Below are positions 8,554-60,583 of a stretch of 64,000 bases of DNA, piece after piece (position 1 is the stretch's first letter; every line of letters starts with the position of its first letter). The position numbers and the translations under genes are program-made. The stretch comes from Bacteroidales bacterium UBA3630 (GTDB lineage Bacteria > Bacteroidota > Bacteroidia > Bacteroidales > P3). The stretch is taken from NCBI GenBank assembly GCA_002373995.1, contig DFLB01000026.1:70127-134126 (forward strand). Reading direction: 5' to 3'. Under the pieces are notes generated by a model. It had not been told where the DNA came from. It saw nothing but the letters and a program-made list of their open reading frames with translations, and searched no databases.

Positions 8554-11034
8554 CTATCCGCGGATTTTCGCGCCCAGCTGGGTCTCGAGGGTCTTCTGGA
8601 TCTTGGCCATAGTGGACTCGATCTGTTTGTCGTTGAGGGTCTTGTCCTTGTCCTGCAGGATGAAGCTGACGGCGTAGGATTTCATGCCCTCGGCGATGCC
8701 CTTGCCCTCGTAGACGTCGAAGAGACTGACGCGCTTGAGCAGTTTCTTCTCGCACTGCATAGCGGCCTGCTCGATGGCGGCGAAGGTGACGTCCTTCTTC
8801 AGGATGAGGGCCAGGTCGCGGCGCACCTCGGGGAACTTGGCCACTTCCTCGTACAGCACCTCCTTGGCGGGGTACTGCTTGAGGAGGAGCGTCCAGTTGA
8901 GGTCGGCATAGTAGACGGGCTGCTTGATGTCCATCTTCTTCAGCGTCTCGCGGCCGATGCGGCCGAGGGTGCCCAGCAGCTGCTTGCTGTCGCGCTGCAC
9001 GATGTCGAGGCCTTCGGCGAAGAATTTGTACTGCGTCGGAACCATCTCCACGCGGCCCATGTTGACGCGCATGCGGTGCAGGATGTCAATGACGTAGGCC
9101 TTGAGGTAGAAGAAGTCGGCCTCGGCGGGCTTCATCTTCCAGCTCTCGGGCGTCATGTTGCCGGTGAGGAAGATGCTGACATGCTCGGTCTCGTTGAAGC
9201 GCTTGGTGACAGGCAGCTCCTGGTTGGCGGCCTCGTCGGTCTTCACGTAGCTGCGGCCGAACTCGTAGAGCTTCTGGTCGTGGATCTTATAATTAATGTT
9301 ACGCGCGATGCACTCGAGGCCGCTGTAGAGCAGCGTCTGGCGCATGACGTTGAGTTCCTTCGACAGGGGGTTGATGATGGGGATGCAGCGGTCGGCCGGG
9401 AAGTCGGGGTTCTCGTCGTAGTATTCGCTCTTGGTGAGCGAGTTGTTCATTATCTCGCTGAAGCCGTTGTCGGTGAGGTAGTCGCTCACGGCGTTCTTCA
9501 GCTTGCGCGGGTCGGGCTTCTTGCCGTAGGAGAGGCAACTGTTGACCGTGGTGCCGATGTGGATGTTGTTGTAGCCGTAGATGCGCATGATTTCCTCCAC
9601 GATGTCGCACTCGCGCGTGACGTCGGCCTTGCAGGTGGGCACACGGAGGGTCATGCCCTCGGCGTCCTCACGCACAATCTCGATGTCGAGCGAGGTGAGG
9701 GCGGTGCGCACGGCCTCCAGCGGGATGTCCTGCCCCACGAGGTCGAACATGCGGCGGAAGTTCACCTCCACCGTCGGACGCTCAATCTTGTTGGGGTAGA
9801 GGTCCACCATCTGGCCGCAGATGTCGCCGCCAGCCAGTTCGCGGATGAGCTTCACGGCGCGGCGCAGGGCCCACTCGGTGATGTTGGGGTCGCAGGTGCG
9901 CTCGTAGCGGTAGCTGGCGTCGGTCTTCAGCGTGTGGCGCTGGCTGGTCTTGCGGATGCTCACGGGGTTGAAGAAGGCGCTCTCGAGGAAGACGTTCGTG
10001 GTCTCCATGCTCACGCCGCTCTTCTGTCCACCGAAGACACCGGCGATGCACATACCCTCGTTCTCGTCGCAGATCATCAGGTCGCGGGCGTCGAGCGTGC
10101 GCTCCACGCCGTCGAGGGTGACGAATTTGGTGCCCTGCGGCAGACGCTTCACGACGACATGGCCGCCGCCGATCTTGTCGGCGTCGAAGGCGTGCAGCGG
10201 CTGGCCCACCTCCATCATGACGAAGTTGGTGACGTCGACGATATTGTTGATGGGACGCAGGCCCACGGTGCGCAGACGGTTCTGCAGCCACTCGGGGCTC
10301 TCCCCTACCTTCACATTGCGCAGCGTGATGCCGGTGTAGCGCGGGCAGAGGTCGGGCTCCTCCACGGTGACGCGGATGGCCTTGTCACTTTCCACTTTCC
10401 ACTCTCCACTTTCCACTTCCGGCCACTTGATGGCCAACTGCTTCCCCTCGCGGGTGTTGCGGACGGCCACCACGTCGCGGGCCACGCCGATGTGCGAGAT
10501 GGCGTCCATGCGGTTGGCCGTGATGGCCACCTCCAACAGGCAGTCGTCCTTCACGTGGAAGTACTCCTTGGCGGGCATTCCCACCGGGGCGTCGTCTGGC
10601 AGCACCATGATGCCGGCATGGTCGGTACCGAGCTGCAGCTCGTCGGCAGCGCAGAGCATACCCTCGCTGACAGCGCCGCGCAGCTTGCCTTTCTTGATCT
10701 CGTAGTATTCGGTATCGGAGGTATAGATCTTGGTGCCTATCTGGGCGCACACCACCTTCTGGCCGGCGGCTACGTTGGGGGCGCCGCAGACGATGTTCAG
10801 CGGACGCTCGCCGCCCACGTCGACGGTGGTCAGGTGCAGGTGGTCGCTGTCGGGGTGCGACTCGCAGGTCAGCACCTGCGCTATCACCACATGCTCCAGA
10901 CCGCCCTTGATGGTCTCCACCTTCTCCATGCTGTCCACCTCCAGGCCGGAGAAAGTCAGCAGGTCGTCCAACTGTTGAGGAGTCATATCCTCAATATCCA
11001 CATACTCTTTAAGCCAGTCAAAAGAAATATTCAT
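8554..11034 (-). CDS. pheT: Phenylalanine--tRNA ligase beta subunit
   Basis: 826-aa ORF. Start MNISFDWLKEYVDI, followed by a tRNA-binding domain, B3/4, B5 and a C-terminal FDX-ACB domain ending SLFDVYEGKGI...SYAVSFILQD. Confidence 0.95.
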   Translation of the reverse strand: MNISFDWLKEYVDIEDMTPQQLDDLLTFSGLEVDSMEKVETIKGGLEHVVIAQVLTCESHPDSDHLHLTTVDVGGERPLNIVCGAPNVAAGQKVVCAQIGTKIYTSDTEYYEIKKGKLRGAVSEGMLCAADELQLGTDHAGIMVLPDDAPVGMPAKEYFHVKDDCLLEVAITANRMDAISHIGVARDVVAVRNTREGKQLAIKWPEVESGEWKVESDKAIRVTVEEPDLCPRYTGITLRNVKVGESPEWLQNRLRTVGLRPINNIVDVTNFVMMEVGQPLHAFDADKIGGGHVVVKRLPQGTKFVTLDGVERTLDARDLMICDENEGMCIAGVFGGQKSGVSMETTNVFLESAFFNPVSIRKTSQRHTLKTDASYRYERTCDPNITEWALRRAVKLIRELAGGDICGQMVDLYPNKIERPTVEVNFRRMFDLVGQDIPLEAVRTALTSLDIEIVREDAEGMTLRVPTCKADVTRECDIVEEIMRIYGYNNIHIGTTVNSCLSYGKKPDPRKLKNAVSDYLTDNGFSEIMNNSLTKSEYYDENPDFPADRCIPIINPLSKELNVMRQTLLYSGLECIARNINYKIHDQKLYEFGRSYVKTDEAANQELPVTKRFNETEHVSIFLTGNMTPESWKMKPAEADFFYLKAYVIDILHRMRVNMGRVEMVPTQYKFFAEGLDIVQRDSKQLLGTLGRIGRETLKKMDIKQPVYYADLNWTLLLKQYPAKEVLYEEVAKFPEVRRDLALILKKDVTFAAIEQAAMQCEKKLLKRVSLFDVYEGKGIAEGMKSYAVSFILQDKDKTLNDKQIESTMAKIQKTLETQLGAKIRG

Positions 11035-11120
11035 ATATGTATCAGTTTATTATCAATAAAACATTGTTTCAATATTCAAACTGCAAAAATACAACTTTTT
11101 CTGTAACCAGCAAAGATAAA

Positions 11121-12314
11121 TCACAATAGGTTTTCCAAATCACCGTTGAAGAACACCTCCAAAGGCATAGCAGGACCTCCCACAACAAGGGAATGTGTCG
11201 GATGAAAGCGTTCTCTGAAGGTTGCCAGGCCACTATTCATCTGGCGGTTACCGCTCTTCACTTCGATAGCCACTGTCTTGTCTCCACGAGTAATCACAAA
11301 GTCCACTTCCTCGTTGTTCTCACGCCAATAGTACAATTGGTATTCCAGTTCATCTGCCTTGTCGAGCAGGTGACATCCCACAGCCGACTCCACCCATCTC
11401 CCCCATAATTGCGGATTGGTGTAGGCTTTCTCAAATGTCATACCATCACTCATCACCGTCAACAATGCATTGTTGTACACCTGCAATTTGGGAATAGACT
11501 TGTATTTACGCGACATGCCAACCGTATATTTTTGCAACCCTGTGAGCAGTTTGCTTTCACCAAGCACCTCCATATAACTCGCCAGTGTAGTTGCATTTCC
11601 GGCATCCTGAAGCATACCCAACATCTTGTTATACGCAAGCAACTCTCCCGAATAGCCACAACCCAGCCTAAACAGTTGGTGCATCAACGCAGGTTTATAG
11701 ATATAAGTTGTCTGTAACACATCTTTCTCGATGGCCGGTGCCACAATGGCTTCTCGCATATACCTCCGCCAACGGCTCTCGTTGGGCAGGTAGCCAGCAC
11801 TCCCAGGATAACCACCGAAATAGACATACTGGTTGATGTCCCAGCCGAAAGCATCTTGCATCTCCTTAAACGACCAATGTCCCATCGGTATCAACTCGAA
11901 GCGTCCTGCCAATGACTCTGTCAGACCTTTTTTCAGCAGCAGCCTTGATGAGCCAAGCAAGATCACTTTCAAATTCACATCGTTAAAGGTATCCGCATCC
12001 CATTCTTTCTTTACTTGCTCGCTCCAGTTGTCAATCTTATGCACCTCGTCGATAGCGAGTAGAAACTCTTTGCTACCAGAGAACCGCATACTCGACCGAG
12101 CTTCCTCCCACCGTGCGGCAACCCACTCGTTATCATCAGGAGTGACAGCGTCGGCGTTGAAGTAAAGTGACGGCATCGAGACCTTCTCTATGAGTTGCTT
12201 TACCACTGTCGTCTTTCCAATTTGACGGGGACCTGCAATCACTTGGATTGTCTTCCTCGGCTCTTGCAACCTGGAAATCAACTCGTTTATTTGTCCTCTT
12301 ACTATCATAACCAT
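11121..12314 (-). CDS. AAA-type ATP-binding protein with DUF4143-like C-terminal domain
   Basis: Walker A motif GPRQIGKTT and Walker B-like LLAIDEVH. C-terminal EVDFVI...AIEVKSG is a restriction-endonuclease-like motif. Start moved to MVMIVRG because a -7 box overlaps the longer ORF start. Confidence 0.75.
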   Translation of the reverse strand: MVMIVRGQINELISRLQEPRKTIQVIAGPRQIGKTTVVKQLIEKVSMPSLYFNADAVTPDDNEWVAARWEEARSSMRFSGSKEFLLAIDEVHKIDNWSEQVKKEWDADTFNDVNLKVILLGSSRLLLKKGLTESLAGRFELIPMGHWSFKEMQDAFGWDINQYVYFGGYPGSAGYLPNESRWRRYMREAIVAPAIEKDVLQTTYIYKPALMHQLFRLGCGYSGELLAYNKMLGMLQDAGNATTLASYMEVLGESKLLTGLQKYTVGMSRKYKSIPKLQVYNNALLTVMSDGMTFEKAYTNPQLWGRWVESAVGCHLLDKADELEYQLYYWRENNEEVDFVITRGDKTVAIEVKSGNRQMNSGLATFRERFHPTHSLVVGGPAMPLEVFFNGDLENLL

Positions 12315-12329
12315 CTGTATTTCCGATTG

Positions 12330-12337
12330 CAAAGATA
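12330..12337 (-). promoter_or_regulatory. -7 box TATCTTTG (minus strand)
   Basis: The plus strand reads CAAAGATA, immediately upstream of the ATPase gene. Confidence 0.4.
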
Positions 12338-12338
12338 C

Positions 12339-12475
12339 AAAAAATCTTCAAATCTCCAACAAAAAATCTTCAATTCTATCAAAAAAAAATCTTCAATTCT
12401 CCAACAGAAAATCTTCAAATCTCCAACAAAAAATCTTCAATTCTTCCGAGAAAAATCTCCGATTCTTATTGCAAC
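12339..12475. repeat. Six tandem units of about 22 bp with phased A-tracts (AAAAAATCTTCAAATCTCCAAC)
   Basis: Read directly. A-tracts recur about every 11 bp. The array lies immediately upstream of the minus-strand promoter at 12330. Confidence 0.85.
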
Positions 12476-16579: not shown

Positions 16580-18283
<1,704 letters not shown>

Positions 18284-19028: not shown

Positions 19029-19048
19029 GAGTTGGCAGTTGACAGTTG

Positions 19049-19091
19049 ACAGTGGGTAGTTGACAGATGCGGTTACCCACTGTTTTTTTTC
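19049..19091 (+). terminator. Intrinsic terminator partly built from 7-nt repeats
   Basis: ACAGTGGGTA-15 nt-TACCCACTGT followed by TTTTTTT. The five GTTGRCA-type units at 19031-19066 supply the left arm. Confidence 0.65.
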
Positions 19092-19107: not shown

Positions 19108-20238
19108 CTACTCATTAACGACCAGAGAGACAGCCAGACGGAAGAACAGCTGCGCAGCTGGCTCGATGAGGGCGTCGGGAAATTCGTAAGATGGATGGTG
19201 GAGTTCGGGCTGATGCTCGCCGCTGCCGATACCGAACATAGCACCATTGTAGTGCAGCAAATATTCGGCAAAGTCCTCGCTCCATCGGTTGGGCTGGTCT
19301 TGAAATTGAAAATTGAGAATTGAGAATTGAGAATTATCCTGCGGGGTGGGTGCTTCGCAGGCTTTCCTTATCTCCTCCACGCAGTCGGGAGTGTTCTCGG
19401 TGGCGTGGAAGGGTTCCTGGAGCATGCGGGAGACCTTGAGGCCGTGGCGGGTGGCGATTTCGTCGACGGCGGCGTTGGCGTCGGCGAGGAGGCGCTGCAT
19501 GACGTCGTTGGTAAAGGCGCGGAGGGTGAACATCACATCGGCATGGCCGGCCGAGGTGCCGAAAGCGGGCTCTCCCACCCTCACACAGATGAGTGTGGAC
19601 TGACGGAATGGGCCAGGTTGCCCGTTAAAGGCATTGAACCTGCCGATTATCTCACTGACTGCCAGGCCGGGGTTGAGTCCCAGCTCAGGTGTAGAGGCAT
19701 GGGTTTCGCGGCCGTCGAGGTGGTAGATGACACCTGTGGAGGCAGCGGCGAAAGTATTCGGACAAAGGACAACGGTGCCCAACGGGTAGCCGGGGAGGTT
19801 GTGCAGGCCGTAGAAGCGCACAATATTGTACTGCTGGAGGATGCCGCTGTCGAGCACAGCTTGCGAACCGGTGCCGGTCTCTTCGGCCGGCTGCCAAAGA
19901 AGGAGAATGTTGTGAGAGTTTTTGCGTGTTGCAACAGTGTTGCAACATACATGACCATCGACGAGTTCGGCGAGGCGGAGGAGGATGGTGGTGTGACCGT
20001 CGTGACCACAACGGTGGCCGATGGGGAGGGCGTCAGTGTCGGCGCGGAAAGCGACGGTGGGAGCCTGCGGGTCTTTGCCCCAGACAGCGATGACGCCATA
20101 GCCCCCCACATGAGTGTAGACTTTGTCGGGGTGGAGCTGCTGGAGGTGACGGATGATAGTGTTATGGGCAAAGCGCTCGTTGCCGGCGGTCTGCGGGTGC
20201 TCGTGGAGCTGGTGGCGTATCTCTTTATAATCAATCAT
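19108..20238 (-). CDS. M20-family amidohydrolase (aminoacylase/HipO-like)
   Basis: 376-aa ORF. Motifs HEHPQTAGNE, AFRADTDALPI and HRCGHDGH. Confidence 0.85.
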   Translation of the reverse strand: MIDYKEIRHQLHEHPQTAGNERFAHNTIIRHLQQLHPDKVYTHVGGYGVIAVWGKDPQAPTVAFRADTDALPIGHRCGHDGHTTILLRLAELVDGHVCCNTVATRKNSHNILLLWQPAEETGTGSQAVLDSGILQQYNIVRFYGLHNLPGYPLGTVVLCPNTFAAASTGVIYHLDGRETHASTPELGLNPGLAVSEIIGRFNAFNGQPGPFRQSTLICVRVGEPAFGTSAGHADVMFTLRAFTNDVMQRLLADANAAVDEIATRHGLKVSRMLQEPFHATENTPDCVEEIRKACEAPTPQDNSQFSILNFQFQDQPNRWSEDFAEYLLHYNGAMFGIGSGEHQPELHHPSYEFPDALIEPAAQLFFRLAVSLVVNE

Positions 20239-20681: not shown

Positions 20682-22019
20682 TTATTTTTTGAGCTTTAAA
20701 ATCTGTTCACGGTAGAAGTCGCCGCGGTGCTCGAAATTGCGGAAAGCATCGTAGCTGGCGGCGGCGGGGGAAAGGAGGACTACCCCACCCTGCGGGGTGT
20801 GGGAGGCGCACCAGGGGACAATCTTGGTGTAGTCGTTCTCGACGATATAAGTTGGCAGTTGGCAGTTGGCAGTTGACAGTATTCTGCGGCCGGCGGCACC
20901 GACGAAGACAAGGTTAGGGACGGGATGCTCCTGCAGGAAGTCGACGAGGGGGGTGTAGTCGATGCCGCGGTCGAAGCCGCCGAGGATAAGTGTGTCGACA
21001 CGACCAAGGGCGCGCACAGCAGCGATGGCGGCGGCAGGAATGGTGGAGATGCTGTCGTCGTACCAGGTGATGCCCTGCACCTCGCCGATGCACTCCAAGC
21101 GATGGCGAAGGCCATGGAAAGTTGAAAGTTGAAAGTTGAAAGTTGAAAGTGGCTGACGCGTAACCAGACTTGCCACACGGCAGGCCACGAGGGCGTTGCT
21201 GCGGTTGTGGTCGCCCTCCAGAGGGCAGGCGTCGAGGAGTTGCCGCTCTTCGTCGGTGATGTCGTGGAGGCTATAGGGGTGGAGGGAGGAGTGTGGATGA
21301 GTGGGAGGATAATAGTGGATGTGCGCCGCAAGCGGTGCATCACAGGACAAAGCGGCATTGGTGACAGAGTGGGCAACGAGGTCGCGAAGCTCGGCGTTGT
21401 CGGTGCAGTAGAAGAAGTGGTCGCCTTCGCGCTGGCGGAGAGCTATCTGGAACTTAGCCATCTTGTAGCCGAGGTAGTTCTCGTAGTGGTCGAGATGCTC
21501 TTGGAAAAGATTGAGCAGTACGGCGATATGCGGGGCGCGGCGGATGTTCTCAAGTTGGTGGCAGCTGAGTTCGGCCACAACGAGGCTGTCTTCACGAAGC
21601 TCGTCGAGAATATCGAAGAGGGGGATGCCTATATTGCCGGCGAGGATGGAGCCGGGCAGCAGGTGATGGATGAGGGAAGCGGTGGTAGACTTGCCTTTAG
21701 TGCCGGTGACGCCGATAGTGAGGTCGCCATAGACCTGCAGGAAGAGGTCGGTGAGGGAAGAAAGTTGGTAGTTGGCAGTTGGCAATTGAAAGTTAGGGAT
21801 GCCGGGGGACTTGATGACAAGGTCGAAGGGCCAGTCGGTATGCCATTGGTCGTCAGGGGATTTCCAGCGGCCGTCAACGACTTGGGTAGCGATGGTGTAA
21901 TGAGCCTCGGGCATGAGGCGTTGTATCAGGCGCTCGGCGCTTTGGCCTTCGCGACCGTAGCCAGCAATCAATATGCGACGGTCGAGGAGAAGGGCTTTCA
22001 GTTGATCTTCTCTGTACAT
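20682..22019 (-). CDS. MurD-like UDP-N-acetylmuramoyl-L-alanine--glutamate ligase (possible MurD2 type)
   Basis: Start set at [11 protein letters not shown]. Rossmann motif ILIAGYGREGQS and Mur-ligase P-loop VTGTKGKSTT. The longer 507-aa reading overlaps the upstream gene. Confidence 0.8.
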   Translation of the reverse strand: MYREDQLKALLLDRRILIAGYGREGQSAERLIQRLMPEAHYTIATQVVDGRWKSPDDQWHTDWPFDLVIKSPGIPNFQLPTANYQLSSLTDLFLQVYGDLTIGVTGTKGKSTTASLIHHLLPGSILAGNIGIPLFDILDELREDSLVVAELSCHQLENIRRAPHIAVLLNLFQEHLDHYENYLGYKMAKFQIALRQREGDHFFYCTDNAELRDLVAHSVTNAALSCDAPLAAHIHYYPPTHPHSSLHPYSLHDITDEERQLLDACPLEGDHNRSNALVACRVASLVTRQPLSTFNFQLSTFHGLRHRLECIGEVQGITWYDDSISTIPAAAIAAVRALGRVDTLILGGFDRGIDYTPLVDFLQEHPVPNLVFVGAAGRRILSTANCQLPTYIVENDYTKIVPWCASHTPQGGVVLLSPAAASYDAFRNFEHRGDFYREQILKLKK

Positions 22020-23536
22020 GCAACTTGAAGTATTTGGCGTTCTTCGGGGGTGAGGTTGCCGATGGGAGACAGAATGGATAGCGAGGATAGAGGGGATAGC
22101 GGGGATAGTTGTATTGATTGCAATAGATTGGGTTTCTTTTCTTTGTACCAGCGTTGGACGGCCATCTGGAGGGCTTGGCGCACCTCGCTGACGGTGCCGA
22201 CGCACTCGAAGGGTTTGGTCTCGGCCAGCCCGAGGAGCTGGCGGAACTCAAGTTCGAGGGAAGTGTCGTCGAGCATCGATTTGCCGAAGATGGCGTTGAG
22301 GCGGTCAGGAGCTATGAAGGGAGAAAGAATGATGTAGGCGAAGAGGCATTTGGCGCAATGGCCGCACCAGATGTCCTGCTTGCTGCCGACGTTGCAGGAG
22401 CGGAAGACGTCGTGGTAGGCCGAGAAGCGGCTAAAGAGCATGGCTATCTGCAACTCGCTCAGCGGGCGGAGAAAGGAGAAGTAGTTGTAAGTGGGCAGTT
22501 GGCAGTTGGCAGTTGGCAGTGGGTAGTTGGCAGTGGGCAGTTGGTAGTTGGCAGTGGGCAGTTGGTAGTTGGCAGTGGGCAGTGGGCAGTGGGCAGTGGG
22601 CAGTTGGTAGTTGGCAGTGGGCAGTGGGTAGTGGGCGACATAGCTGCGGAAGTCGTCTTCGAACTCAAGGCTTTTGCTGTATTGGTGGTTGACGCTGGTG
22701 CCGAGGACAGTGCTCTCGTTAGCGGAGTTCTCATTGCTGAGAGCCACATTGGGGATGCCGCTGATGACGGCTGCCAGATGGGTGTAGAAAGCCAACATTG
22801 CGCTGAAAGGCGTGTGGCCATTGAGATAACGGTGAACGGTCGCTCCTGTTTGGTCGCGTTCAGTTTCACTGTTGAGATCGAGGAGAGTCTTGTCAATGGT
22901 GCGGCGGATGACAAGGACTTCATCTATTGGAAATCCAGCCACGCGAGCGCACTCGATGGTGGCTCCGCGGGGGTTCATGATCAGAGGACGGATAGATTTG
23001 CCCGCCCGACGCAGCAGTTCAAGTGTGACGACGCTGTCCTTGCCCCCTCCGATGGGGACGAGGTAGAGGTCGGAGGTATGAGGTATGAGGTCAGAGGTTT
23101 TCTTTGGTTTAGAGTTTTCGGTTCTGTTCTCCGACTTCATACATCCAACCTGCATAAAGGCCTCGGCCGACTCGCTGATGCCGTTGGTGTAGAAGAACTC
23201 GCCGAGGCCGTGCCAGTAGAGTTTGCGCCAGAAGGAGATCTGATTGTCGGTCAGGCTGCCGCAGTGAATTCGAACAGTGGGCGGGCAGGCGCATTTCCAG
23301 TAGCTTATCAGTTCAATCATGCCGATATTGAACACCAGGAGTTCGAGGTTGCCTGCAGAGAAGTCGAGGAAAGGGCGGCGTTCGATGAGGGCTGTGGGGT
23401 GGAACTCCACTGGGCCCATGCGGAAGTCGAAGCGCAGGTGCAGGCCGTCGGGTTCCACGTGCCAGTGGTAGTCCTCATAGTCGAAAAACGGGTACTGTGC
23501 CCGCAACTGATTGTATTTGCTCATCATGACGATCAA
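21998..23536 (-). CDS. PP-loop (adenine nucleotide alpha-hydrolase-like) protein, candidate MurL-type UDP-MurNAc-L-Ala-L-Glu epimerase
   Basis: 512-aa ORF. PP-loop-like [12 protein letters not shown] and C-terminal CGHCAKC. Overlaps the start of the MurD-like gene by 22 nt. Contains three in-frame short-period repeat arrays. Confidence 0.55.
22484..22637. repeat. Heptanucleotide microsatellite, about 22 units of GTKGGYA
   Basis: Counted unit by unit on the plus strand. On the minus strand it is translated as (PTANYQL)n. Confidence 0.95.
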
Positions 23537-25865: not shown

Positions 25866-25902
25866 GGGGCAGTTGACAGTTGACAGTTGGCAGTCTGGTC
25901 TG

Positions 25903-31753: not shown

Positions 31754-32632
31754 TTATCTTATGATGGTTACGGTTCCTTTTTCCTCACGCAACACACCCT
31801 CGCTGTCGCGGAAACGGGCCACCCAGACGTATGTTCCCTGCGGCAGATGTTGTCCGTCGTAGGTGGCATCCCATCCGCGGTTGATGTCGGTGGAGGAGAA
31901 GACCTGGCGTCCGCCGCGGTTGAAGATGTAGAGGTGCAGGTCAGACACGGGCGACGCCGCCGACAGGCGGAATATCCTGTTCTGTTCGTCGTCGCTCGAC
32001 GGCATGATGACGTTCGGGGCCCACAGGGTGTTGCTCTGCTGCGTGGCAACAGTTTGATTTGAAAGCTTGTAGCCGGTAGATTGCAGCGGCTGCGGGCTGT
32101 CGGTTGCGGGCGGGTTCTCTTCGGTCTTGCTGGCTTCGAAGTCGGGTTCTGGCGTTGACGATTGATTGTTGACAGCTGGCAGTTGGCGGTTGGCGGTTGG
32201 CGGCACAACGGCTGACACCGCATTCGGCTCGCCGCTCGCCGTATTGTTTTCCGCCATCTGACTTTCCGCTACTGGCGGCAGCTGGATACTGGTAGCAGAT
32301 GACTGGTCGGTCACATGCTCACGGCCGATGGGTGTCCTTGTATCGGGCTCAGGGCTGACGGTTGCCGGTTCGACGGCCGTCGTGGTGGGGCTGGAGGTTG
32401 TAACCTGCTGGTGGTATGACGGTTGAGGGCTGACGGCTGAGGCCTGAGGACCAGATGCCGACCTCCGGGTTCCGAGTTCCATGGCAGCAGCCACTCCAGC
32501 AACCACCAGGAGCACGCCCGCTGCCACCCCGCCCACGCGCATCCAGCGGCGGCGACGGAGGCGGCGCTCTATTCTCTCAAACATTCCCTCGTCGGGATCC
32601 ACGTTATACTTCTTCAAATCAATCATATCCAT
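31754..32632 (-). CDS. Anti-sigma-like membrane protein with a C-terminal T9SS type B (gliding-motility CTD) domain
   Basis: N-terminal FERIERRLRRRRW plus one TM helix. Low-complexity linker. C-terminal NVIMPSSDDEQNRIF...WDATYDGQHLPQGTYVWVARF...GTVTIIR. Confidence 0.6.
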   Translation of the reverse strand: MDMIDLKKYNVDPDEGMFERIERRLRRRRWMRVGGVAAGVLLVVAGVAAAMELGTRRSASGPQASAVSPQPSYHQQVTTSSPTTTAVEPATVSPEPDTRTPIGREHVTDQSSATSIQLPPVAESQMAENNTASGEPNAVSAVVPPTANRQLPAVNNQSSTPEPDFEASKTEENPPATDSPQPLQSTGYKLSNQTVATQQSNTLWAPNVIMPSSDDEQNRIFRLSAASPVSDLHLYIFNRGGRQVFSSTDINRGWDATYDGQHLPQGTYVWVARFRDSEGVLREEKGTVTIIR

Positions 32633-33255: not shown

Positions 33256-33335
33256 TCGGACCGCCAATCGTCCGTCTTTCATCGGACCACCCTCGGACCA
33301 TCATCGGACCATCCTCGGACCATCCCCGGACCAAG
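33256..33335. repeat. 11-12-bp phased tandem repeat (TCGGACCATCC type)
   Basis: Consecutive units at 33282, 33293, 33304 and 33315, with degenerate copies upstream. The array lies 90-170 bp upstream of the sigma-factor start. Confidence 0.7.
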
Positions 33336-33370: not shown

Positions 33371-34087
33371 TTAGGTTTTAGGGTTCTTGGAATCAATGAC
33401 TTGCAGCACGGAGACGTATTCGTCGGCCACGGAGAAGCGGATTTCCCACTGGCTGTAGCGGATGGCGTAGACGCGGTTTGCGTCGTTTTGGTACTGGGGG
33501 CGAGGGTCTTGCAGGAGGCATTGGGTGACGGCGTGCCTGTCGGCTGGCGGCAGGAGGAGCAGGAGGCCGTGGTCGTCCACTATACCCTGGAGGGGTGTGG
33601 GAGGGGTGTGGGCGAAGCCGCTCCGTGCCAATGGGTGGCTGTCGGCGTAAGGGATGTAGGGTTTTATGTCGAGTATGGGGGTGCCGTCGACGAGGTCGGC
33701 ACCGGCTATGTGGAGGAGGGGCCCCAAGGTTGGTGATTGTTCCACTTGCAGTAGGCGGACGCTGGAGAGTCCGATGGCGTTGGGGCGGAAGGGGCTTCGG
33801 GTGGCGAAGACCCCTACCCTTTTGTTGCCGCCCAAGCGGGGCGGGCGGACGGTGGGCTTGAAAGCCGGTTGCCGGCAGTCGGCAGTTGACTGTGTGGGGT
33901 TGGCAGAGGCTAAGTGGAAGAGCCAGATGAGCCAGATGTATTCGAACTCTTCGAGGCCGCGCACGGCTTCGGAGACGCGGTACTGGGGTTCGAAGACGAT
34001 GCGGGCGGTGCTGTCCACGAGTCCCGCTTGCCGCGGTATACCGAATTTGTCTTTGAAGGGTGATTCTATGTGGGCTATCGGGGACAT
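33371..34087 (-). CDS. trmO: tRNA (t6A37-N6)-methyltransferase TrmO (YaeB family)
   Basis: IAHIESPFKDKFGIPRQAGLV...GLEEFEYIWLIWLFH. Start set at MSPIAHI. A longer reading to 34156 would translate the repeat hairpin. Confidence 0.8.
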   Translation of the reverse strand: MSPIAHIESPFKDKFGIPRQAGLVDSTARIVFEPQYRVSEAVRGLEEFEYIWLIWLFHLASANPTQSTADCRQPAFKPTVRPPRLGGNKRVGVFATRSPFRPNAIGLSSVRLLQVEQSPTLGPLLHIAGADLVDGTPILDIKPYIPYADSHPLARSGFAHTPPTPLQGIVDDHGLLLLLPPADRHAVTQCLLQDPRPQYQNDANRVYAIRYSQWEIRFSVADEYVSVLQVIDSKNPKT

Positions 34088-34102
34088 AGGCGGCTGGTGG
34101 AT

Positions 34103-34185
34103 GGTAGCTGGTAGCTGATAGCTGGTAGCTGGGAGCGAGTAGTCATGGTCAACCATAAGCTTCCAGCTACCAGCTACCAGCTACC
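34103..34185. repeat. Inverted pair of heptanucleotide arrays, (GGTAGCT)4-5 and (CCAGCTA)3, forming a long hairpin
   Basis: The left arm is 34103-34136 and the right arm 34163-34185. The loop contains the palindrome ATGGTCAACCAT. The hairpin spans the stop of the upstream gene and the 5' end of trmO. Confidence 0.85.
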
Positions 34186-35200
34186 TGCTTATGTTACGCC
34201 ATACGGCGTCGAAGTCGGCTTTGTTTTTGAGCAGGGTGTTGGGGATGTCGAGGGAATAGGGGCAGCGGCTTTTGCAGAGGTTGCAGTGGACGCAGAGGTC
34301 TATCTTGTCCATTTCGCGGCGCCAGGAGTCGGTGACGTAAACGCTGTGCGGGGCGCGTTGGAGGAAGAGGCTCATGCGGTTGCAGTCTTGTATTTGGATG
34401 CCGACGGTGCAGGGTTGGCAGTAGCCGCAGCCGCGGCAGAAGTCGCCGGAGAGCTCACGGCGGTCTTTTTCGATCAGTTGCAGCATATCTGCTGTCAGCG
34501 CCGGCGGGTTGTCCTGATAGGACAGCCATTCGTCGAGCTCGGTTTCTTTCTGTATGCCCCAGATGGGGGCCACCTCGTATTGTGCCAGCCAAGCGTAGGC
34601 GGCGGCGGAGTGGGTGATGAGGCCACCGCTGAGGCCTTTCATGCAGATGAAGCCCATATCAGAGGCGAGAGTGCGTTGCACGATGTCGATGTCGGCTTGC
34701 GAAGCCAGGTAGCTGAAGGGGTATTGGAGGGTTTCGTAGAGGCCGCTTTCGATGGCTTCCACGGCCACGCGCTGACGGTGGTTGGTGATGCCGATATGCA
34801 GCACTTTGCCCTCACTCACAGCTTGTTCCATTGCCTCGTAGAGTCCGCTGCCGTCGCCGGGTTTGGGGCAGAACGGGAGGTTGTGGAACTGGTAGAGGTC
34901 GACATGGTCAGTGCGCAGCAGGCGCAAGCTGGTTTCGAGGTCTTTGCGGAAACCCTCGGCGGTTGTGGCACCTGTTTTGGTGCTAATTATCACCTCGTTG
35001 CGGCGGCCTTCGAGGGCGATGCCGAGCTTCTCCTCGCTGTCGGTGTAGAAGCGGGCGGTGTCGAAGTAGTACATGCCGCCGTCGAGGGCGCGGCGGACGA
35101 GCCTGACGGCGTCGGCCTGGCTGATGCGTTGTATGGGGAGGGCCCCGAATCCGTTGCGCGGCACGACGAGGCCGCTGCGTCCAAGTCTTACTTTCTGCAT
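34181..35200 (-). CDS. Aldo/keto reductase with C-terminal 4Fe-4S cluster domain
   Basis: Start at MQKVRLGRSGLVVPRNGFG. AKR core. C-terminal CRGCGYCQPC and CVHCNLCKSRCP. Confidence 0.8.
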   Translation of the reverse strand: MQKVRLGRSGLVVPRNGFGALPIQRISQADAVRLVRRALDGGMYYFDTARFYTDSEEKLGIALEGRRNEVIISTKTGATTAEGFRKDLETSLRLLRTDHVDLYQFHNLPFCPKPGDGSGLYEAMEQAVSEGKVLHIGITNHRQRVAVEAIESGLYETLQYPFSYLASQADIDIVQRTLASDMGFICMKGLSGGLITHSAAAYAWLAQYEVAPIWGIQKETELDEWLSYQDNPPALTADMLQLIEKDRRELSGDFCRGCGYCQPCTVGIQIQDCNRMSLFLQRAPHSVYVTDSWRREMDKIDLCVHCNLCKSRCPYSLDIPNTLLKNKADFDAVWRNISR

Positions 35201-36274: not shown

Positions 36275-36319
36275 CGAAAAAAGTGGAGAGTGGAGAGAGG
36301 AAAGTGGGGATATCCTGCA

Positions 36320-46818: not shown

Positions 46819-47196
46819 ATGAACATTCCTGCAAATCTGAAGTATACCCAGGATGATGAATGGGTACGCGTAGAGGGCGAATTTGCCTATGTTGGTATTA
46901 CAGACTATGCCCAGCACGAGCTTGGCGACATCGTTTTTGTCGATGTGACTTGCGAGGGCGACACAGTGGAAGCCGGCGAGCCTTTTGGCAGCGTTGAGGC
47001 TGTGAAGACTGTGGCTGACTTGCTGATGCCTGTGAAGGGTGAGGTGGTGGAGTTTAACGCCGACCTCGACGATGCCAGCGCTATCAATGCCGATCCTTAT
47101 GGCAAGGGCTGGATTATCAAGGTGCGTCCGGAGAACATGGCTGACATCGACGCTTTGATGGATGCCGCCGCTTACACTGCCAAGATTGGTGCGTAA
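46819..47196 (+). CDS. gcvH: Glycine cleavage system protein H
   Basis: 125 aa. Lipoyl-lysine context [11 protein letters not shown]-terminal YTQDDEWV. Confidence 0.95.
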
Positions 47197-47230
47197 GACG
47201 CGTTGAGACGTTGAGACGTTGAGTAAAAAA

Positions 47231-48338: not shown

Positions 48339-48457
48339 GGTAATGTGTTTTTTAGGTAACTTTAATGTTATTTTAACTGGCGACAAATATACAAAAAAAA
48401 TTATTAGTGGGGAGGAAAAACGAAAAATAAAACGGCGGGATGTGCGGCCTTGGATGT

Positions 48458-48545
48458 GCTTAGGATATGCTTAGGATATGCTTAGGATATGCTTAGGATA
48501 TGCTTAGGATATGCTTAGGATATGCTTAGGGAAGGGTTAGGGTAC
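48458..48545. repeat. 11-bp tandem repeat: GCTTAGGATAT in six perfect units plus two degenerate units
   Basis: Counted directly, with units starting at 48458, 48469, 48480, 48491, 48502 and 48513. The array lies about 110-200 bp upstream of the tRNA promoter. Confidence 0.95.
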
Positions 48546-48777: not shown

Positions 48778-48834
48778 GGAAAGTGGGAAGTGGAAAGTGC
48801 AAGACGGCTTTCGACTTTCCACTTTTGACTTTAC
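48778..48834 (+). terminator. Hairpin made of inverted GGAAAGT heptamers downstream of the tRNA
   Basis: AAGTGGAAAGT at 48788-48798 pairs with ACTTTCCACTT at 48814-48824. T-rich sequence follows. Confidence 0.5.
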
Positions 48835-53131: not shown

Positions 53132-56995
<3,864 letters not shown>

Positions 56996-56999
<4 letters not shown>

Positions 57000-57481: not shown

Positions 57482-57610
57482 GGGTTCTTCCTTTGGCGCT
57501 ACGGACTCGGGGTGTTGCGCTTTGGGTACTACGCTATCCTCCTTAGGCTTTGCGGCTGCCGGCTTGGGGTCAACATTGTCCGTGCCTGCCCTTGCGGGGC
57601 CTCTTGCAAT

Positions 57611-60215: not shown

Positions 60216-60330
60216 TGTGGTTTCCTTTCTGTTTCCAGATGGTTTTACGGGTGCAAAAATAGGGATTAAATTTGGAAGTTGCAAGTTTTTTTACAAAAAA
60301 AATGCAAGGTTACAGAGGTTGGGGGGATGG

Positions 60331-60420
60331 GTATGCCTATGTAATGCTTAGGATATGCCTACGTTGTGCTTAGGATGAGCTTAGGATATGCTTAGGGTGA
60401 GCTTGGGGTGAGGGGGATTG
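60331..60420. repeat. Degenerate 11-bp phased repeat related to GCTTAGGATAT
   Basis: Successive 11-mers read ATGCTTAGGAT, GTGCTTAGGAT, GAGCTTAGGAT, ATGCTTAGGGT and GAGCTTGGGGT. The array lies 40-130 bp upstream of the promoter at 60457. Confidence 0.75.
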
Positions 60421-60456
60421 GGGATAAAAAATTTGTATGGAATGCGGTTTTTTTTG

Positions 60457-60464
60457 TATATTTG
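60457..60464 (+). promoter_or_regulatory. -7 box TATATTTG for the mce-mmd operon
   Basis: Lies about 140 nt upstream of the mce ATG. Confidence 0.5.
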
Positions 60465-60521
60465 CATTTTCAAATGTGCGGTAGAAATCCCCTAACAGGC
60501 TAAGGGTTAGGGAATAAGAGT

Positions 60522-60583
60522 GGGGATTGAAGATTAAGAATTAAGGATTGAGAATGAGGAGTGGGGATTGAGGATTGAGAATT
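60522..60583. repeat. Heptanucleotide array (GGGGATT/GAAGATT/AAGAATT/GAGGATT/GAGAATT) in the mce leader
   Basis: Read directly. There are about nine units with one 6-nt slip. Confidence 0.85.

What the first reader, a model, noticed from the sequence alone, without database searches (positions are those of the whole stretch)
10386..60583. One family of purine-rich 7-nt tandem repeats recurs at about twenty sites: in ORFs, in leaders and at gene ends
Sites I located by reading:
- 10386-10420 (pheT)
- 16722-16750 (glnS)
- 19031-19066 (3' of the LEA-like gene)
- 19300-19335 (M20 hydrolase)
- 20851-20880, 21116-21150 and 21760-21794 (murD-like gene)
- 22484-22637 and 23060-23101 (MurL-like gene)
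- 25868-25895 (between convergent genes)
- 32164-32205 (anti-sigma-like gene)
- 33864-33891 (trmO)
- 34103-34136 and 34163-34185 (inverted pair)
- 36283-36310 (upstream of the ltaE promoter)
- 48778-48798 and 48814-48834 (inverted pair)
- 55859-55900 (ligA)
- 60522-60583 (mce leader)
- 47196-47224, which is an 8-nt variant

The unit variants are GGCAGTT, GACAGTT, GGTAGTT, GAAAGTT, GGAAAGT, GAGAATT, GAGGATT and GGTAGCT. They share a skeleton of G, purine-rich core, then T(T). In ORFs they yield heptad peptides: AACTGCC x3 gives NCQLPTA, AATTCTC x3 gives NSQFSIL, and ACTTTCA x3 gives TFNFQLS.

This density and reuse of one repeat grammar across coding and non-coding contexts is not explained by any feature type I know for Bacteroidota. 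It suggests either a genome-specific repeat-seeding mechanism or selection for a shared function such as hairpins or protein binding.
Basis: partly seen in the sequence, partly recalled or inferred. Interest (0 to 1): 0.7.

Follow-up and report, generated by a model that had tools for sequence, protein, structure and literature searches.

The report
Clade-wide heptanucleotide repeat family in genes
An uncultured group of rumen Bacteroidales is peppered, inside essential genes as well as between them, with short 7-base tandem repeats that share one sequence pattern, which makes it a good system for asking how such repeats arise.

Summary
The window holds about 20 period-7 arrays where about 1 is expected by chance, and their units fit one consensus, GARARTK.

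It is not peculiar to this genome. The window comes from an uncultured rumen Bacteroidales. Its close relatives carry 11-27 such arrays per 100 kb with the same units. More distant relatives of similar GC content carry few or none, so base composition does not explain it. Periods 7, 8 and 11 dominate, and the 8- and 11-nt units share the same 3' core (RGTT followed by G).

About 60-74% of arrays lie in frame inside housekeeping genes, in variable loops. Most are not insertions. 78 of 147 have the same length as the most common ortholog length, and length differences are multiples of 3, not 7.

Arrays recur at the same loops in different species with different units, or in opposite orientation. 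Long and non-coding arrays vary in copy number between strains. About 20% form inverted pairs (hairpins).

Best reading: a hypermutable, self-homogenising simple-sequence family driven by slippage plus short-patch templated exchange and filtered by selection. That mechanism is inferred, not shown. The family is a new variant of the known bacterial heptanucleotide repeats (STRR, GGGAATC, TAACTGA).

The parts
10386..10418 (-). (GAAAGTG)x4.7 inside pheT. The purine strand is the sense strand and encodes EVESGEWKVES.
   Evidence: TRF, 92% matches. Translation. Seven of 13 orthologous sites have the same length.
16721..16750 (+). GTTGRCA-type array in a loop of the C-terminal domain of glnS, encoding STVNCQLAT.
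   Evidence: The loop falls in a 9-residue gap against the P. aeruginosa GlnRS structure 5bnz. Relatives have either no array here or a GAAAGTG array in the opposite orientation.
19030..19066 (+). GGCAGTT/GACAGTT array starting 2 nt after the LEA_2 stop codon. Its last units form the 5' arm of a terminator-like hairpin (19048-19084) followed by a T run.
   Evidence: -20.5 kcal/mol, z = -2.6.
19300..19335 (+). GAAAATT/GAGAATT array in the M20 peptidase gene, encoding [11 protein letters not shown].
   Evidence: Strains L083/L084 carry a divergent allele without the array that is 9 aa shorter at this site.
20850..20880 (+). (GGCAGTT)x4.4 in the MurD-like ligase, C-terminal loop, encoding STANCQLPT.
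   Evidence: The same alignment position holds arrays of other units in most close relatives.
21117..21150 (+). (GAAAGTT)x4.9, a perfect array in the MurD-like ligase, encoding LSTFNFQLSTF.
   Evidence: Strains differ only by point changes.
21760..21794 (+). GAAAGTT GGTAGTT GGCAGTT GGCAATT GAAAGTT in the MurD-like ligase after KSPGIP, encoding [11 protein letters not shown].
   Evidence: The tract is 33 nt in 31 of the 32 array-bearing species listed (36 nt in L019), with species-specific units, and a subclade has the non-repeat GVPMRVMGGVEC instead.
22481..22636 (+). About 21 units of GGCAGTT/GGCAGTG/GGTAGTT in a loop of MurL, encoding (YQLPTAN)x7.
   Evidence: MurL Pfam domains. Strain alleles are 154, 133, 49 and 42 nt, and the 42-nt allele breaks the frame. 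In relatives the loop is a hot spot holding very different repeats.
23060..23098 (+). GAGGTAK-type array in MurL, encoding [13 protein letters not shown].
   Evidence: Its length is stable in all strains.
25868..25895 (+). (GRCAGTT)x4 filling the 37-nt spacer between the convergent stop codons of the nitroreductase and YebC genes.
   Evidence: Strains carry 2-4 units and also vary in a G run. No secondary structure (z = 0.5).
32164..32205 (+). GGCAGTT/GGCGGTT array in the CHU_C-domain protein encoded next to an ECF sigma factor.
32417..32449 (+). Additional period-7/14 array (TGACGGC/TGAGGGC) in the same CHU_C gene.
33864..33891 (+). Degenerate heptamer run in the linker of TrmO.
   Evidence: No TRF row. 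Strains show two alleles at this site, the other being (GGAGGTC)x3 plus an inverted arm.
34093..34136 (+). (GGTAGCT)x6, the left arm of an inverted pair that ends about 6 nt upstream of the TrmO start codon.
   Evidence: As mRNA the pair folds to -59 kcal/mol (z = -8.4). The unit type differs between strains: GGTAGCT, GGTAGTT or GGCAGTT.
34158..34189 (-). (AGCTACC)x4.6, the right arm of that pair, overlapping the stop codon of the aldo/keto reductase gene.
   Evidence: Strain L086 has a deletion that fuses the two arms.
36282..36310 (+). GAGAGTG/GAAAGTG array between the clpB stop codon and the ltaE start codon.
   Evidence: Its length is invariant in strains.
47196..47224 (+). 8-nt variant (GAGACGTT)x3 directly after the gcvH stop codon.
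   Evidence: Strains carry 2 or 3 copies. It has the same G...RGTT|G skeleton as the heptamers.
48778..48799 (+). GGAAAGT-type array, the left arm of a hairpin directly after tRNA-Met (48696-48770) and upstream of ruvX.
   Evidence: -29.9 kcal/mol, z = -6.0.
48808..48834 (-). ACTTTCC-type array, the right arm of that hairpin.
55859..55900 (+). (GAGAATT)x4.6 in ligA, just N-terminal of the KxDG adenylation motif, encoding [12 protein letters not shown].
   Evidence: More than 70 relatives lack it: their segment is 48 nt against 66 nt here. The periodicity runs into the native flanks CTC...CAGTT.
60518..60584 (+). About 9 degenerate units (GGGGATT, GAAGATT, AAGAATT and similar) in the leader of the methylmalonyl-CoA epimerase gene.
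   Evidence: Absent from the same leader in 4 relatives.
48452..48530 (+). Sister array with an 11-nt unit, (GGATATGCTTA)x7. A second, related one lies at 60344-60412.
   Evidence: Strains carry about 7-9 copies. Period 11 is the third most common period in the clade.
33282..33333 (+). 11-nt array (TCGGACCATCC)x4.7 between trmO and the ECF sigma factor gene.

Best explanation
What it is. The sites are members of one lineage-specific family of simple-sequence DNA.
- They are short tandem arrays of a heptanucleotide with consensus GARARTK.
- Tracts are typically 4-5 units, about 30 nt.
- Rarer arrays with 8- or 11-nt units share the same 3' core, RGTT followed by G.
- The family pervades a clade of uncultured rumen Bacteroidales at roughly one array per 4-9 kb.

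How it most likely works.
1. Arrays are mutation hot spots. Replication slippage changes copy number in 7-nt steps. This is shown between strains.
2. Short patches of about 30 nt are copied from one array register, from another array, or from the complementary strand, by template switching or gene conversion seeded on the conserved core. This is inferred. It would keep arrays homogeneous without changing their length. It would let new unit variants spread to many sites in a genome. It would plant arrays at new sites. It would create inverted pairs.
3. Selection only filters the outcome. Inside genes, arrays persist only in variable surface loops and linkers. There they stay in frame, on the strand without stop codons, with loop length roughly kept. 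Elsewhere they sit in intergenic spacers. Some hairpin pairs have been co-opted as terminator-like stems or leader hairpins.

I propose no function for the family as such.
For: SHOWN
- Excess over chance and over other periods.
- One unit consensus, with the core shared by the 8- and 11-mers.
- Clade-specific, not compositional, and replicated in a second genomic region and a second data source.
- Strain polymorphism. The MurL array is 154/133/49/42 nt. The spacer array has 2-4 units. The 8-mer has 2-3 copies and the 11-mer about 7-9.
- Coding arrays sit in loops that are gapped or variable against solved structures.
- Orientation in ORFs follows the stop-codon rule. Antisense to sense is 124:36 overall, but 23:15 for GAAAGTG/GAGAGTG, which carry no stop codon in the purine orientation.
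- Arrays are enriched outside genes relative to gene coverage: 12 of 20 are coding against 88.5% coverage, p = 0.001.
- Length changes. 78 of 147 coding arrays equal the most common ortholog length. Every difference is a multiple of 3, and only 4 of 69 are multiples of 7.
- Array sequence is unrelated to the same-length non-repeat ortholog: identity 0.34 against a control of 0.24.
- The same loop is occupied independently. GlnRS has GAAAGTG in the sense orientation in 12 loci, GTTGRCA in the antisense orientation in the window, and no array in 7 loci. The MurL loop holds at least 6 different repeat types.
- MurD site 1 is 33 nt in 31 of the 32 array-bearing species listed (36 nt in L019), but homogeneous for a different unit in each species.
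- 42 of 216 arrays have an inverted copy within 90 nt, against 5.7 expected.

SUGGESTIVE of exchange between arrays
- The window's MurD site 1 has inner units of the species' own GGCAGTT pool flanked by ancestral GAAAGTT units.
- The GGCAGTT pool is present at 8 or more sites here and is rare elsewhere.
- The TrmO-leader array has different units in different strains.
- The MurL and TrmO-leader arrays of strain L086 share an exact 38-nt stretch.
- The LigA array's periodicity extends into native microhomologies on both sides.
Against: - Exchange between arrays is inferred, not observed. The 38-nt match could arise by chance given the small pool of variants.
- Across all genomes, units are only marginally more alike within a genome than between genomes: distance 2.68 against 2.79, permutation p = 0.08.
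- Array versus no-array differences between close relatives can also come from ordinary homologous recombination of old alleles. This is seen for M20 and TrmO.
- The model does not explain why the register is 7 (with 8 and 11 as minors), nor why 4-5 units is the preferred tract length.
- Strong conservation of unit positions 4-7 would equally fit purifying selection for a binding factor.
- Counts over orthologous sites are not phylogenetically independent.
Confidence: 0.5

Rival explanations
1. Selected cis-element. The arrays are recognition sites, four to five phased copies of GARARTK, for a lineage-specific protein that binds DNA or RNA. Candidates are a nucleoid or segregation factor, or a DNA-uptake or recombination signal that spreads by biased uptake plus allelic replacement. 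Purifying selection or drive on the motif would keep them homogeneous.
For: - Unit positions 4-7 are strongly conserved while positions 2-3 vary.
- Tract length peaks sharply at 4.x units (103 of 160 coding arrays).
- Arrays occur in either orientation and in both coding and non-coding DNA at roughly one per 3-9 kb.
- Species differ in their preferred units, like 'dialects'.
- Array and array-free alleles of equal length are swapped between strains by recombination.
- Inverted pairs sit at gene ends and act as terminator-like hairpins.
- Several of these features resemble uptake sequences in Neisseria and Haemophilus. That comparison rests on my own knowledge and was not tested here.
Against: - Many different units coexist in one genome. 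The window alone has GGCAGTT, GAAAGTT, GAAAGTG, GAGAATT, GGTAGCT and GAGGTAT.
- Non-coding arrays are not conserved in position among relatives: the mce leader array is absent in 4 of 4.
- No orientation polarity with GC skew.
- No positional rule relative to start or stop codons in the window.
- Arrays decay freely in many lineages.
- No candidate binding protein was identified.
Confidence: 0.2
2. Plain microsatellites. Each array grew where it sits from a chance near-repeat, by replication slippage alone. Slippage would be favoured at a 7-nt register by a property of this clade's replisome, as in the polymerase-contact idea attributed to Mrazek 2007. The common grammar would be a by-product of mutation bias and of what proteins tolerate.
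For: - Copy-number polymorphism in whole units.
- Heptamers are the commonest long SSR class in many bacteria (PMC4679880 and PMC4692102, citing Mrazek 2007).
- The lineage restriction fits a replisome trait.
- dnaX in this clade has an unusual in-frame TAG. This shows only that the replisome genes are atypical.
Against: - Random seeds should give random units, but the observed units carry 7.0 bits against 2.7 for random heptamers. The same units appear in independent acquisitions.
- Arrays bear no similarity to the sequence they replace.
- Most coding arrays involve no net length change, and length differences are not multiples of 7.
- The short coding arrays compared at MurD site 1 and the LigA C-terminal linker stay near-perfect while almost never varying in length.
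- Tract length peaks at 4 units rather than declining geometrically.
Confidence: 0.17
3. A dedicated writer. An enzyme with its own template or sequence specificity deposits the repeats at breaks or hairpins. Candidates are a reverse transcriptase copying a short RNA template in the manner of telomerase, a primase-polymerase, or an HUH/RAYT-type nuclease acting on the hairpin forms. A change in the template would explain species-specific units.
For: - Discrete unit lengths (7, 8, 11) with a common 3' core.
- A species-wide pool of a derived unit at 8 or more sites in the window's species.
- Complete replacement of the native sequence.
- 20% of arrays are hairpin forms, as REP/REPIN elements are.
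Against: - No reverse transcriptase, RAYT or transposase gene turned up among the window ORFs I scanned with Pfam, or in the gene tables of the strain loci.
- Several unit types coexist in each genome.
- Interior-patch patterns and constant-length turnover fit conversion better than end addition.
- No target-site duplications were seen.
Confidence: 0.07
4. Artefact or chance. The arrays are compositional noise, amino-acid repeats, or assembly errors.
For: None found. The window and most relatives are metagenome assemblies, so the possibility had to be checked.
Against: - Shuffles give about 1 array against about 20 observed.
- The repeat is periodic at 7 nt, not 3 or 21.
- Identical arrays are recovered in independent assemblies from different studies and assemblers.
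- Most arrays are about 30 nt, well below read length.
- GC-matched distant relatives lack them.
Confidence: 0.01

Closest known systems
Long simple sequence repeats (LSSR) of 5-11 nt in prokaryotes (Mrazek, Guo and Shah 2007, as summarised in PMC4679880 and PMC4692102)
   Same: - Tandem units of 5-11 nt that are longer than chance allows.
- Heptamers are the dominant class.
- Sporadic, lineage-specific distribution.
- Slippage is the proposed cause.
- No link to virulence genes.
   Different: - In the published surveys, units whose length is not a multiple of 3 are depleted in coding regions. Here 60-74% are in ORFs of housekeeping genes.
- All units here obey one consensus.
- Most coding arrays replace native sequence without changing its length.
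- The host group, rumen Bacteroidales, has not been reported in what I could search.
GGGAATC repeats of Xanthomonas and GGGGA(C/T)T repeats of Nostoc (Rehm et al. 2015, PMC4692102). The Nostoc repeats resemble the cyanobacterial STRR heptamers (own knowledge, not stated in PMC4692102)
   Same: - A heptamer family spread over the whole genome.
- Preference for about four units.
- Found at the same intergenic sites in related species, with variation in length and sequence.
- Occasional inverted pairs.
- No functional class bias among host genes.
- Function unknown.
   Different: - Those units are G-tract repeats that form G-quadruplexes and are strongly biased to non-coding DNA.
- Here only one array in the window fits a G4 motif (22576).
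- The published units are absent from 2.5 Mb of this clade's DNA (0-1 tandem sites).
TAACTGA direct repeats of Beggiatoaceae, Cyanobacteria and five Bacteroidetes (MacGregor 2015, PMC4679880)
   Same: - A heptamer with patchy phylogenetic distribution that includes Bacteroidetes (Paludibacter, Flexibacter and others).
- When the repeats lie inside ORFs, they are read on the stop-free strand and encode a 7-residue peptide repeat at protein peripheries.
- Mobility was suspected, but no mechanism is known.
   Different: - TAACTGA repeats are mostly intergenic, in the forward orientation a few nucleotides upstream of start codons. They are a single unit sequence, and related heptamers are rare.
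- TAACTGA is absent here (0 tandem sites).
- Here there are many units, most arrays are coding, and there is no rule tying them to start codons.
SSR contingency loci (phase variation) of host-adapted pathogens
   Same: - Hypermutable tandem repeats.
- Changes in unit number between strains.
- One MurL allele is out of frame.
   Different: - The hosts here are essential housekeeping genes (pheT, glnS, ligA, murD/murL), not surface or virulence genes.
- Arrays are kept in frame.
- Short coding arrays do not vary in length between strains.
Small palindromic dispersed repeats (REP/REPIN, and the small dispersed repeats of Nostoc, Elhai 2008; the latter recalled from memory because the paper is not held)
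   Same: - About 20% of arrays are hairpin pairs in intergenic spacers.
- A very small, dispersed, self-similar family.
- In-frame occurrence inside genes has been reported for the cyanobacterial elements (from memory).
   Different: - Most arrays here are not palindromic.
- Their arms are themselves tandem repeats.
- No associated RAYT or transposase was seen.

Membership tests
Prokaryotic long SSR (5-11 nt units) | Head-to-tail copies of a 5-11 nt unit, longer or more frequent than expected for the sequence's composition | tested here: met
   17 period-7 arrays plus 6 of period 14/21, against 1.1 in shuffles. In the clade: period 7 = 187, period 8 = 34, period 11 = 30, all other periods 6 or fewer.
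Prokaryotic long SSR (5-11 nt units) | Copy number changes by whole units between strains (slippage) | tested here: met
   MurL array 154/133/49/42 nt. Spacer array 2-4 units. 8-mer 2-3 copies. 11-mer about 7-9 copies. Short coding arrays do not vary.
Prokaryotic long SSR (5-11 nt units) | Units whose length is not a multiple of 3 are depleted in coding DNA (a typical property, not strictly defining) | tested here: not met
   12 of 20 arrays in the window and 160 of 216 in the clade lie in long ORFs.
Cyanobacterial STRR and Nostoc/Xanthomonas G-rich heptamers | Unit sequence CCCCAGT, TTGGTCA, CAACAGT, GGGAATC or GGGGA(C/T)T | tested here: not met
   0-1 tandem sites for each unit in 2.5 Mb of clade DNA.
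Cyanobacterial STRR and Nostoc/Xanthomonas G-rich heptamers | Four or more G tracts able to form a G-quadruplex | tested here: not met
   Only the MurL array (22576) among the window's arrays fits G3N1-7 x4. The common units GAAAATT, GAAAGTG and GAGAATT have no G tracts.
TAACTGA repeats | TAACTGA unit in the forward orientation, just upstream of start codons | tested here: not met
   No TAACTGA tandem sites. Arrays here are mostly intragenic.
Phase-variation contingency loci | Repeat in the 5' coding region or promoter of a surface or virulence gene, with unit changes switching expression on and off | tested here: not met
   Hosts are pheT, glnS, ligA, murD-like, murL, trmO and an M20 peptidase. 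All alleles but one are in frame.
REP/REPIN-type palindromic elements | Imperfect palindrome, extragenic, dispersed | tested here: inconclusive
   42 of 216 arrays have an inverted partner within 90 nt, against 5.7 expected. Some of these pairs lie inside ORFs, and 80% of arrays have no partner.
REP/REPIN-type palindromic elements | Associated RAYT (IS200-like) transposase in the genome | not testable with these tools
   Whole genomes could not be scanned. None appears in the window or strain loci that I annotated.
DNA uptake sequences (DUS/USS) | One specific 9-12 nt motif at about one per kb in a naturally competent species, with biased uptake | not tested
   This is only an analogy: both orientations, coding loops, inverted pairs as terminators. 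The motif here is degenerate and tandem. Competence is unknown.

The most novel reading that the evidence does not exclude
The arrays are written, not grown. A lineage-specific templated process overwrites roughly 30-nt stretches of unconstrained DNA with GARARTK-type repeats. It would work either through a network of template switching between arrays seeded on the conserved ARTK|G core, or through a dedicated enzyme or uptake-and-recombination drive. It would act inside essential genes, preserving length and reading frame. That would make these arrays a new class of non-autonomous 'mobile microsatellite', and it would give a mechanistic answer to why heptamer repeats are over-represented in scattered bacterial lineages.
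Probability: 0.25. Interest if true: 0.85.

Novelty: new variant of a known kind. Interest (0 to 1): 0.6.

Why it matters
Heptanucleotide repeats have been known in cyanobacteria since 1990 (own knowledge), and were reported in 2007 to be over-represented in many bacteria (as cited in PMC4679880 and PMC4692102). The two papers I read say their origin and role remain unexplained.

This clade offers an unusually informative case for three reasons:
- Arrays are dense, and most sit inside conserved genes. Orthologs therefore give a precise 'before and after' at hundreds of sites.
- Many related metagenome-assembled genomes and strain-level contigs already exist.
- The data already show features that simple slippage does not predict: one unit grammar across periods 7, 8 and 11, replacement without length change, repeated occupation of the same loops, and inverted pairs.

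The arrays also matter practically:
- They put hypervariable 7-residue peptide repeats into essential enzymes.
- They create strain markers.
- They can break assemblies and gene calls in rumen metagenomes.

Tried and rejected
- **Compositional effect: rejected.** Shuffle controls and GC-matched distant relatives both argue against it.
- **Replication-strand polarity: no support.** The purine strand lies on the locally G-rich strand in 14 of 22 non-coding singles and 19 of 31 unconstrained coding arrays (p about 0.28 each). The near-uniform '+' orientation in the window follows from most host genes being on the minus strand combined with the stop-codon rule.
- **Genome-wide homogenisation of units: weak.** Within-genome distance 2.68 against 2.79 between genomes, p = 0.08.
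- **In-place 'periodisation' of the local sequence: rejected.** Arrays share only 0.34 identity with same-length non-repeat orthologs, against a control of 0.24.
- **Recent recombination explaining the shared LigA array of the window and L114: no support.** There is no patch of raised identity around the array. W and L114 are not nearest relatives. Whether this reflects independent gain or old allele sharing stays open.
- **Conserved regulatory role for the mce-leader array: rejected.** It is absent in 4 of 4 relatives.
- **G-quadruplex idea: rejected as a general explanation**.
- **Rfam:** no known RNA family overlaps the arrays.
- **Literature:** I found no report of heptamer repeats in Bacteroidales beyond MacGregor 2015. 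Elhai 2008 could not be read.
- **Low-GC island:** Pfam and PADLOC gave no hits.

Full report

Yes. The sequences read as described. After removing overlaps there are 17 arrays of period 7 plus 6 of period 14/21. Thirty dinucleotide-preserving shuffles of the window give a mean of 1.1 period-7 arrays, with a maximum of 3. A stricter self-match scan finds 10 arrays at period 7 and 0-1 at every other period from 4 to 15.

The weakest site is 33864-33891. It is a degenerate run that TRF does not report. Pfam supports the gene labels.

**2. Where does the window come from, and is the trait genome-specific?**

The MurD-like protein finds its best relatives in metagenome-assembled genomes labelled uncultured Bacteroidales from rumen and hindgut. 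They are 62-77% identical, and no species is named. Exact-protein look-ups recover contigs of the same species from several rumen metagenome studies. One of them (L081/L095) is identical to the window.

Scanning 705 kb from close relatives (MurD at least 62% identical) gives 187 arrays of period 7, 34 of period 8 and 30 of period 11. Every other period from 4 to 15 gives 6 or fewer. That is 26.5 heptamer arrays per 100 kb. In 702 kb from more distant relatives the figure is 4.1 per 100 kb. Several distant loci with the same GC content (0.53-0.57) have none.

An independent set confirms this. It comprises 1.11 Mb around ligA in JGI/ENA metagenome contigs. It shows the same spectrum (period 7 = 122, period 8 = 23, period 11 = 22) and the same leading units. 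Period 7 is special, and GC-matched relatives outside the clade lack the arrays. The trait belongs to a clade, however, not to one genome.

**3. The grammar**

The consensus units of 216 arrays align to G/A, A, R, A (93%), R (98%), T (92%), K (99%). This is 7.0 bits of information, against 2.7 bits for random heptamers put through the same alignment.

The commonest units are:
- GAAAATT (36)
- GAAAGTG (25)
- GAGAATT (16)
- GAGAGTG (13)
- GAAAGTT (12)

The window's favourite, GGCAGTT/GACAGTT, is almost private to its species. Five of the six exact tandem sites found in 2.5 Mb are in the window. L019, L024 and L027 do have similar units at single sites. The 8- and 11-nt units share the skeleton G...RGTT followed by G. 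Examples are GAGACGTT, GATACGTT, GGGTCGGAGTT and GGTAAGTCGTT. None of the published heptamers occurs in tandem more than once in this DNA. These are TAACTGA, the three STRR units, GGGAATC and GGGGAYT.

**4. Context**

In the window, 12 of 20 heptamer arrays lie in genes while genes cover 88.5% of the sequence. Arrays are therefore enriched in spacers (p = 0.001), but most are still coding. In the clade, 160 of 216 lie in ORFs of at least 200 codons. This is a crude ORF call.

The host genes are ordinary housekeeping genes: pheT, glnS, ligA, a MurD-like ligase, the MurL epimerase, trmO and an M20 peptidase. Because 7 is not a multiple of 3, each array is read in all three phases and yields a 7-residue peptide repeat.

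The purine-rich strand is antisense in 124 of 160 coding arrays. Units ending in TT create TGA at the unit junction on the purine strand. The two commonest units without that problem (GAAAGTG, GAGAGTG) occur 15 times sense and 23 times antisense. Stop codons therefore explain the orientation.

Against solved structures, the LigA array replaces a short segment just before the KxDG motif. The GlnRS array falls in a 9-residue gap of a C-terminal-domain loop. Coding tracts are remarkably uniform. The median is 30.5 nt, and 103 of 160 have 4.x units.

**5. Arrays are mostly replacements, not insertions**

At MurD site 1 the tract is 33 nt in 31 of the 32 array-bearing species listed (36 nt in L019). 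It is homogeneous for a different unit in different species: AATTTTC, AATTCTC, ACTTTCC, ACCTTTC, AACTGTC or AACTGCC. A subclade and the outgroups have the non-repeat GVPMRVMGGVEC instead.

At the LigA C-terminal linker, GAAAGTG or AGTGGTC arrays occupy exactly the 66 nt that are non-repetitive in most of the 82 orthologs.

Over 147 coding arrays with at least 10 orthologous sites:
- 78 have the most common ortholog length, 46 are longer and 23 are shorter.
- All differences are multiples of 3, and only 4 of the 69 non-zero differences are multiples of 7.
- 51 arrays have at least three same-length orthologs with no periodicity.

These counts are not phylogenetically independent. Array sequence is essentially unrelated to the same-length non-repeat ortholog: identity 0.34, against a control of 0.24 and 0.58 in the adjacent flanks. 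The array is therefore not a partly overwritten copy of the local sequence.

**6. Recurrence at the same sites**

The GlnRS loop is array-free in 7 loci. It carries a sense-strand GAAAGTG array in 12 loci. In the window it carries an opposite-strand GTTGRCA array that retains the QFPDGIA flank of the array-free type. This indicates independent acquisitions.

The MurL loop is a fixed 8-residue loop in all distant relatives. Within the clade it is shortened, or filled with AATTTTC, GAATGAA or TTCGGAG arrays, or with inverted pairs of GGCAGTT-type or 8-nt TGCGTTAA-type units. In the window it holds 21 units.

The LigA N-terminal array is present only in the window's species and in L114. More than 70 relatives have 48 nt where the window has 66. 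The array's periodicity continues into the native CTC on the left and the native CAGTT on the right. The window and L114 are not each other's nearest relatives, and no recombination patch is visible.

**7. Variation within the species**

- The MurL array is 154, 154 (with a different internal order), 133, 49 or 42 nt. The 42-nt allele splits the gene.
- The spacer array at 25868 has 2-4 units.
- The 8-mer at 47196 has 2-3 copies.
- The 11-mer at 48452 has about 7-9 copies.
- Short coding arrays keep their length and differ only by point changes.
- The TrmO-leader array has a different unit in different strains: GGTAGCT in the window, matching its inverted partner perfectly, and GGTAGTT or GGCAGTT elsewhere. 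One strain has a deletion that fuses the two arms.
- TrmO 33864 and the M20 site exist as two very different alleles embedded in near-identical or recombinant flanks.

**8. Hairpins**

42 of 216 arrays have an inverted 14-mer within 90 nt, against 5.7 (maximum 11) in a flank-swap control. The window has three:
- The TrmO leader pair: -59 kcal/mol, z = -8.4.
- The pair right after tRNA-Met: -29.9 kcal/mol, z = -6.0.
- The end of the 19030 array, which pairs with downstream sequence ahead of a T run as a terminator-like hairpin.

Single arrays are unstructured. Inverted pairs also occur inside ORFs.

**9. Tests that came out negative**

- There is no orientation bias relative to local GC skew.
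- Within-genome unit similarity is only marginally higher than between genomes.
- The mce-leader array is not conserved in relatives.
- There is no Rfam family at the arrays.
- The G-quadruplex motif occurs at only one array.

**10. Interpretation**

What is shown:
- A clade-wide, hypermutable family of heptanucleotide arrays with one unit consensus.
- It is tolerated in protein loops and in spacers.

What is inferred:
- The mechanism behind the common grammar.
- How arrays stay homogeneous without changing length.
- Why the same loops are occupied repeatedly.
- How inverted pairs arise.

The explanation I favour is slippage plus short-patch template switching or gene conversion among arrays, seeded on the conserved 3' core. 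Indirect evidence comes from four observations:
- The interior-patch pattern at the window's MurD site 1.
- The species-wide GGCAGTT pool.
- Unit swaps between strains.
- The microhomologies at the LigA junction.

A selected binding or uptake-type signal remains a serious rival, because it predicts the same conserved core and the peak at four units. Slippage alone fits poorly. A dedicated enzyme is possible but has no direct support. None of these accounts explains why the register is 7.

**11. Relation to known systems**

The arrays meet the definition of prokaryotic long SSRs. They resemble the heptamer families of Xanthomonas and Nostoc and the TAACTGA repeats (PMC4692102, PMC4679880). The shared features are the period, the preference for about four units, a patchy phylogenetic distribution and an unknown function.

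They differ in four ways:
- the unit sequences;
- the host lineage;
- being mostly intragenic in essential genes;
- the replacement-without-length-change pattern.

I therefore class them as a new variant of a known kind.

Noticed in passing
window 56996-58735 (- strand); stop codon at 57611-57613; relatives L101-L179: dnaX is a single reading frame interrupted by one in-frame TAG (...MPQAQG*IARGPARAGT...). The part before the stop holds DnaX domains I-III. The part after it is a low-complexity linker plus a C-terminal domain (tau-like by position, not checked against any family). In all 47 relatives where both parts are present, they are in the same frame with exactly one stop. The stop is TAG in 32 of 32 inspected. 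It is followed by a conserved ATWGCAAGR and a short hairpin with apparently compensatory changes. This looks like programmed UAG readthrough producing gamma and tau. I found no report of it. TAG is used as a normal stop elsewhere in the window, for example in the M20 gene.
   Followed up: partly
window about 39900-44700: A low-GC island (GC 0.42 against about 0.55) with five or six ORFs lies between a DUF6266 gene and rho. None of these ORFs has a Pfam or PADLOC hit. Most conspecific strains lack the island, and one strain (L099) has a different insert at the same place.
   Followed up: partly
window 20243-20672; 12337-12466; 8153-8315: Intergenic regions hold larger AT-rich tandem repeats: 78-nt x2.8 with nested 10-nt AGATTTTAAA, 22-nt x5.9, and 41-nt x4. 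The 22-nt unit contains AATTCTC. I did not analyse them.
   Followed up: no
window 8356-8401 (-) and 8503-8548 (+): Two copies of the Rfam motif Acido-Lenti-1 RNA (56.8 and 49.8 bits) lie in opposite orientation. They sit between the 41-nt repeat array and the end of pheT.
   Followed up: no
window 20682-23527; loci L055, L057, L059, L061, L066, L067, L069, L072, L073: The MurD-like ligase overlaps a gene with MurL_N and MurL_epimerase_C domains. From my own knowledge this is the L-Glu ligase plus epimerase route to D-Glu in peptidoglycan. In several distant relatives the two appear fused into one ORF of 790-930 residues.
   Followed up: partly
window 39200-39240: An (AAAC)n plus poly-A tract about 10 nt upstream of the DUF6266 gene's start codon varies between strains by several A residues and one AAAC unit. 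It is a possible phase-variable leader.
   Followed up: no
window 20000-28000: GC skew on the + strand is very strong (+0.20 to +0.26) although nearly all genes there are on the - strand. The sense strands are therefore markedly C-rich. The cumulative skew has its minimum near 12-16 kb.
   Followed up: no
window 44707-46587 (rho) and strain loci L091-L100: The Rho protein is 620, 626, 627 or 630 residues long in different strains of the same species. The part that varies was not located: the one tandem-repeat site in rho that I compared across strains (45640-45690) does not vary.
   Followed up: no
L102, L110, L115, L125 (dnaX linker downstream of the TAG): In several relatives the linker following the dnaX stop is itself built from short tandem peptide repeats. 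Examples are QDQGSKFKDQSSKFQDQGSKF and VESEVKSVESEEKAVESG. The latter looks like a GAAAGTG-type array. The repeat family therefore also shapes this linker.
   Followed up: no
window 31304-31690 (-): RNase P RNA, bacterial class A (231 bits), lies between the DUF4810-like gene and the CHU_C gene.
   Followed up: no
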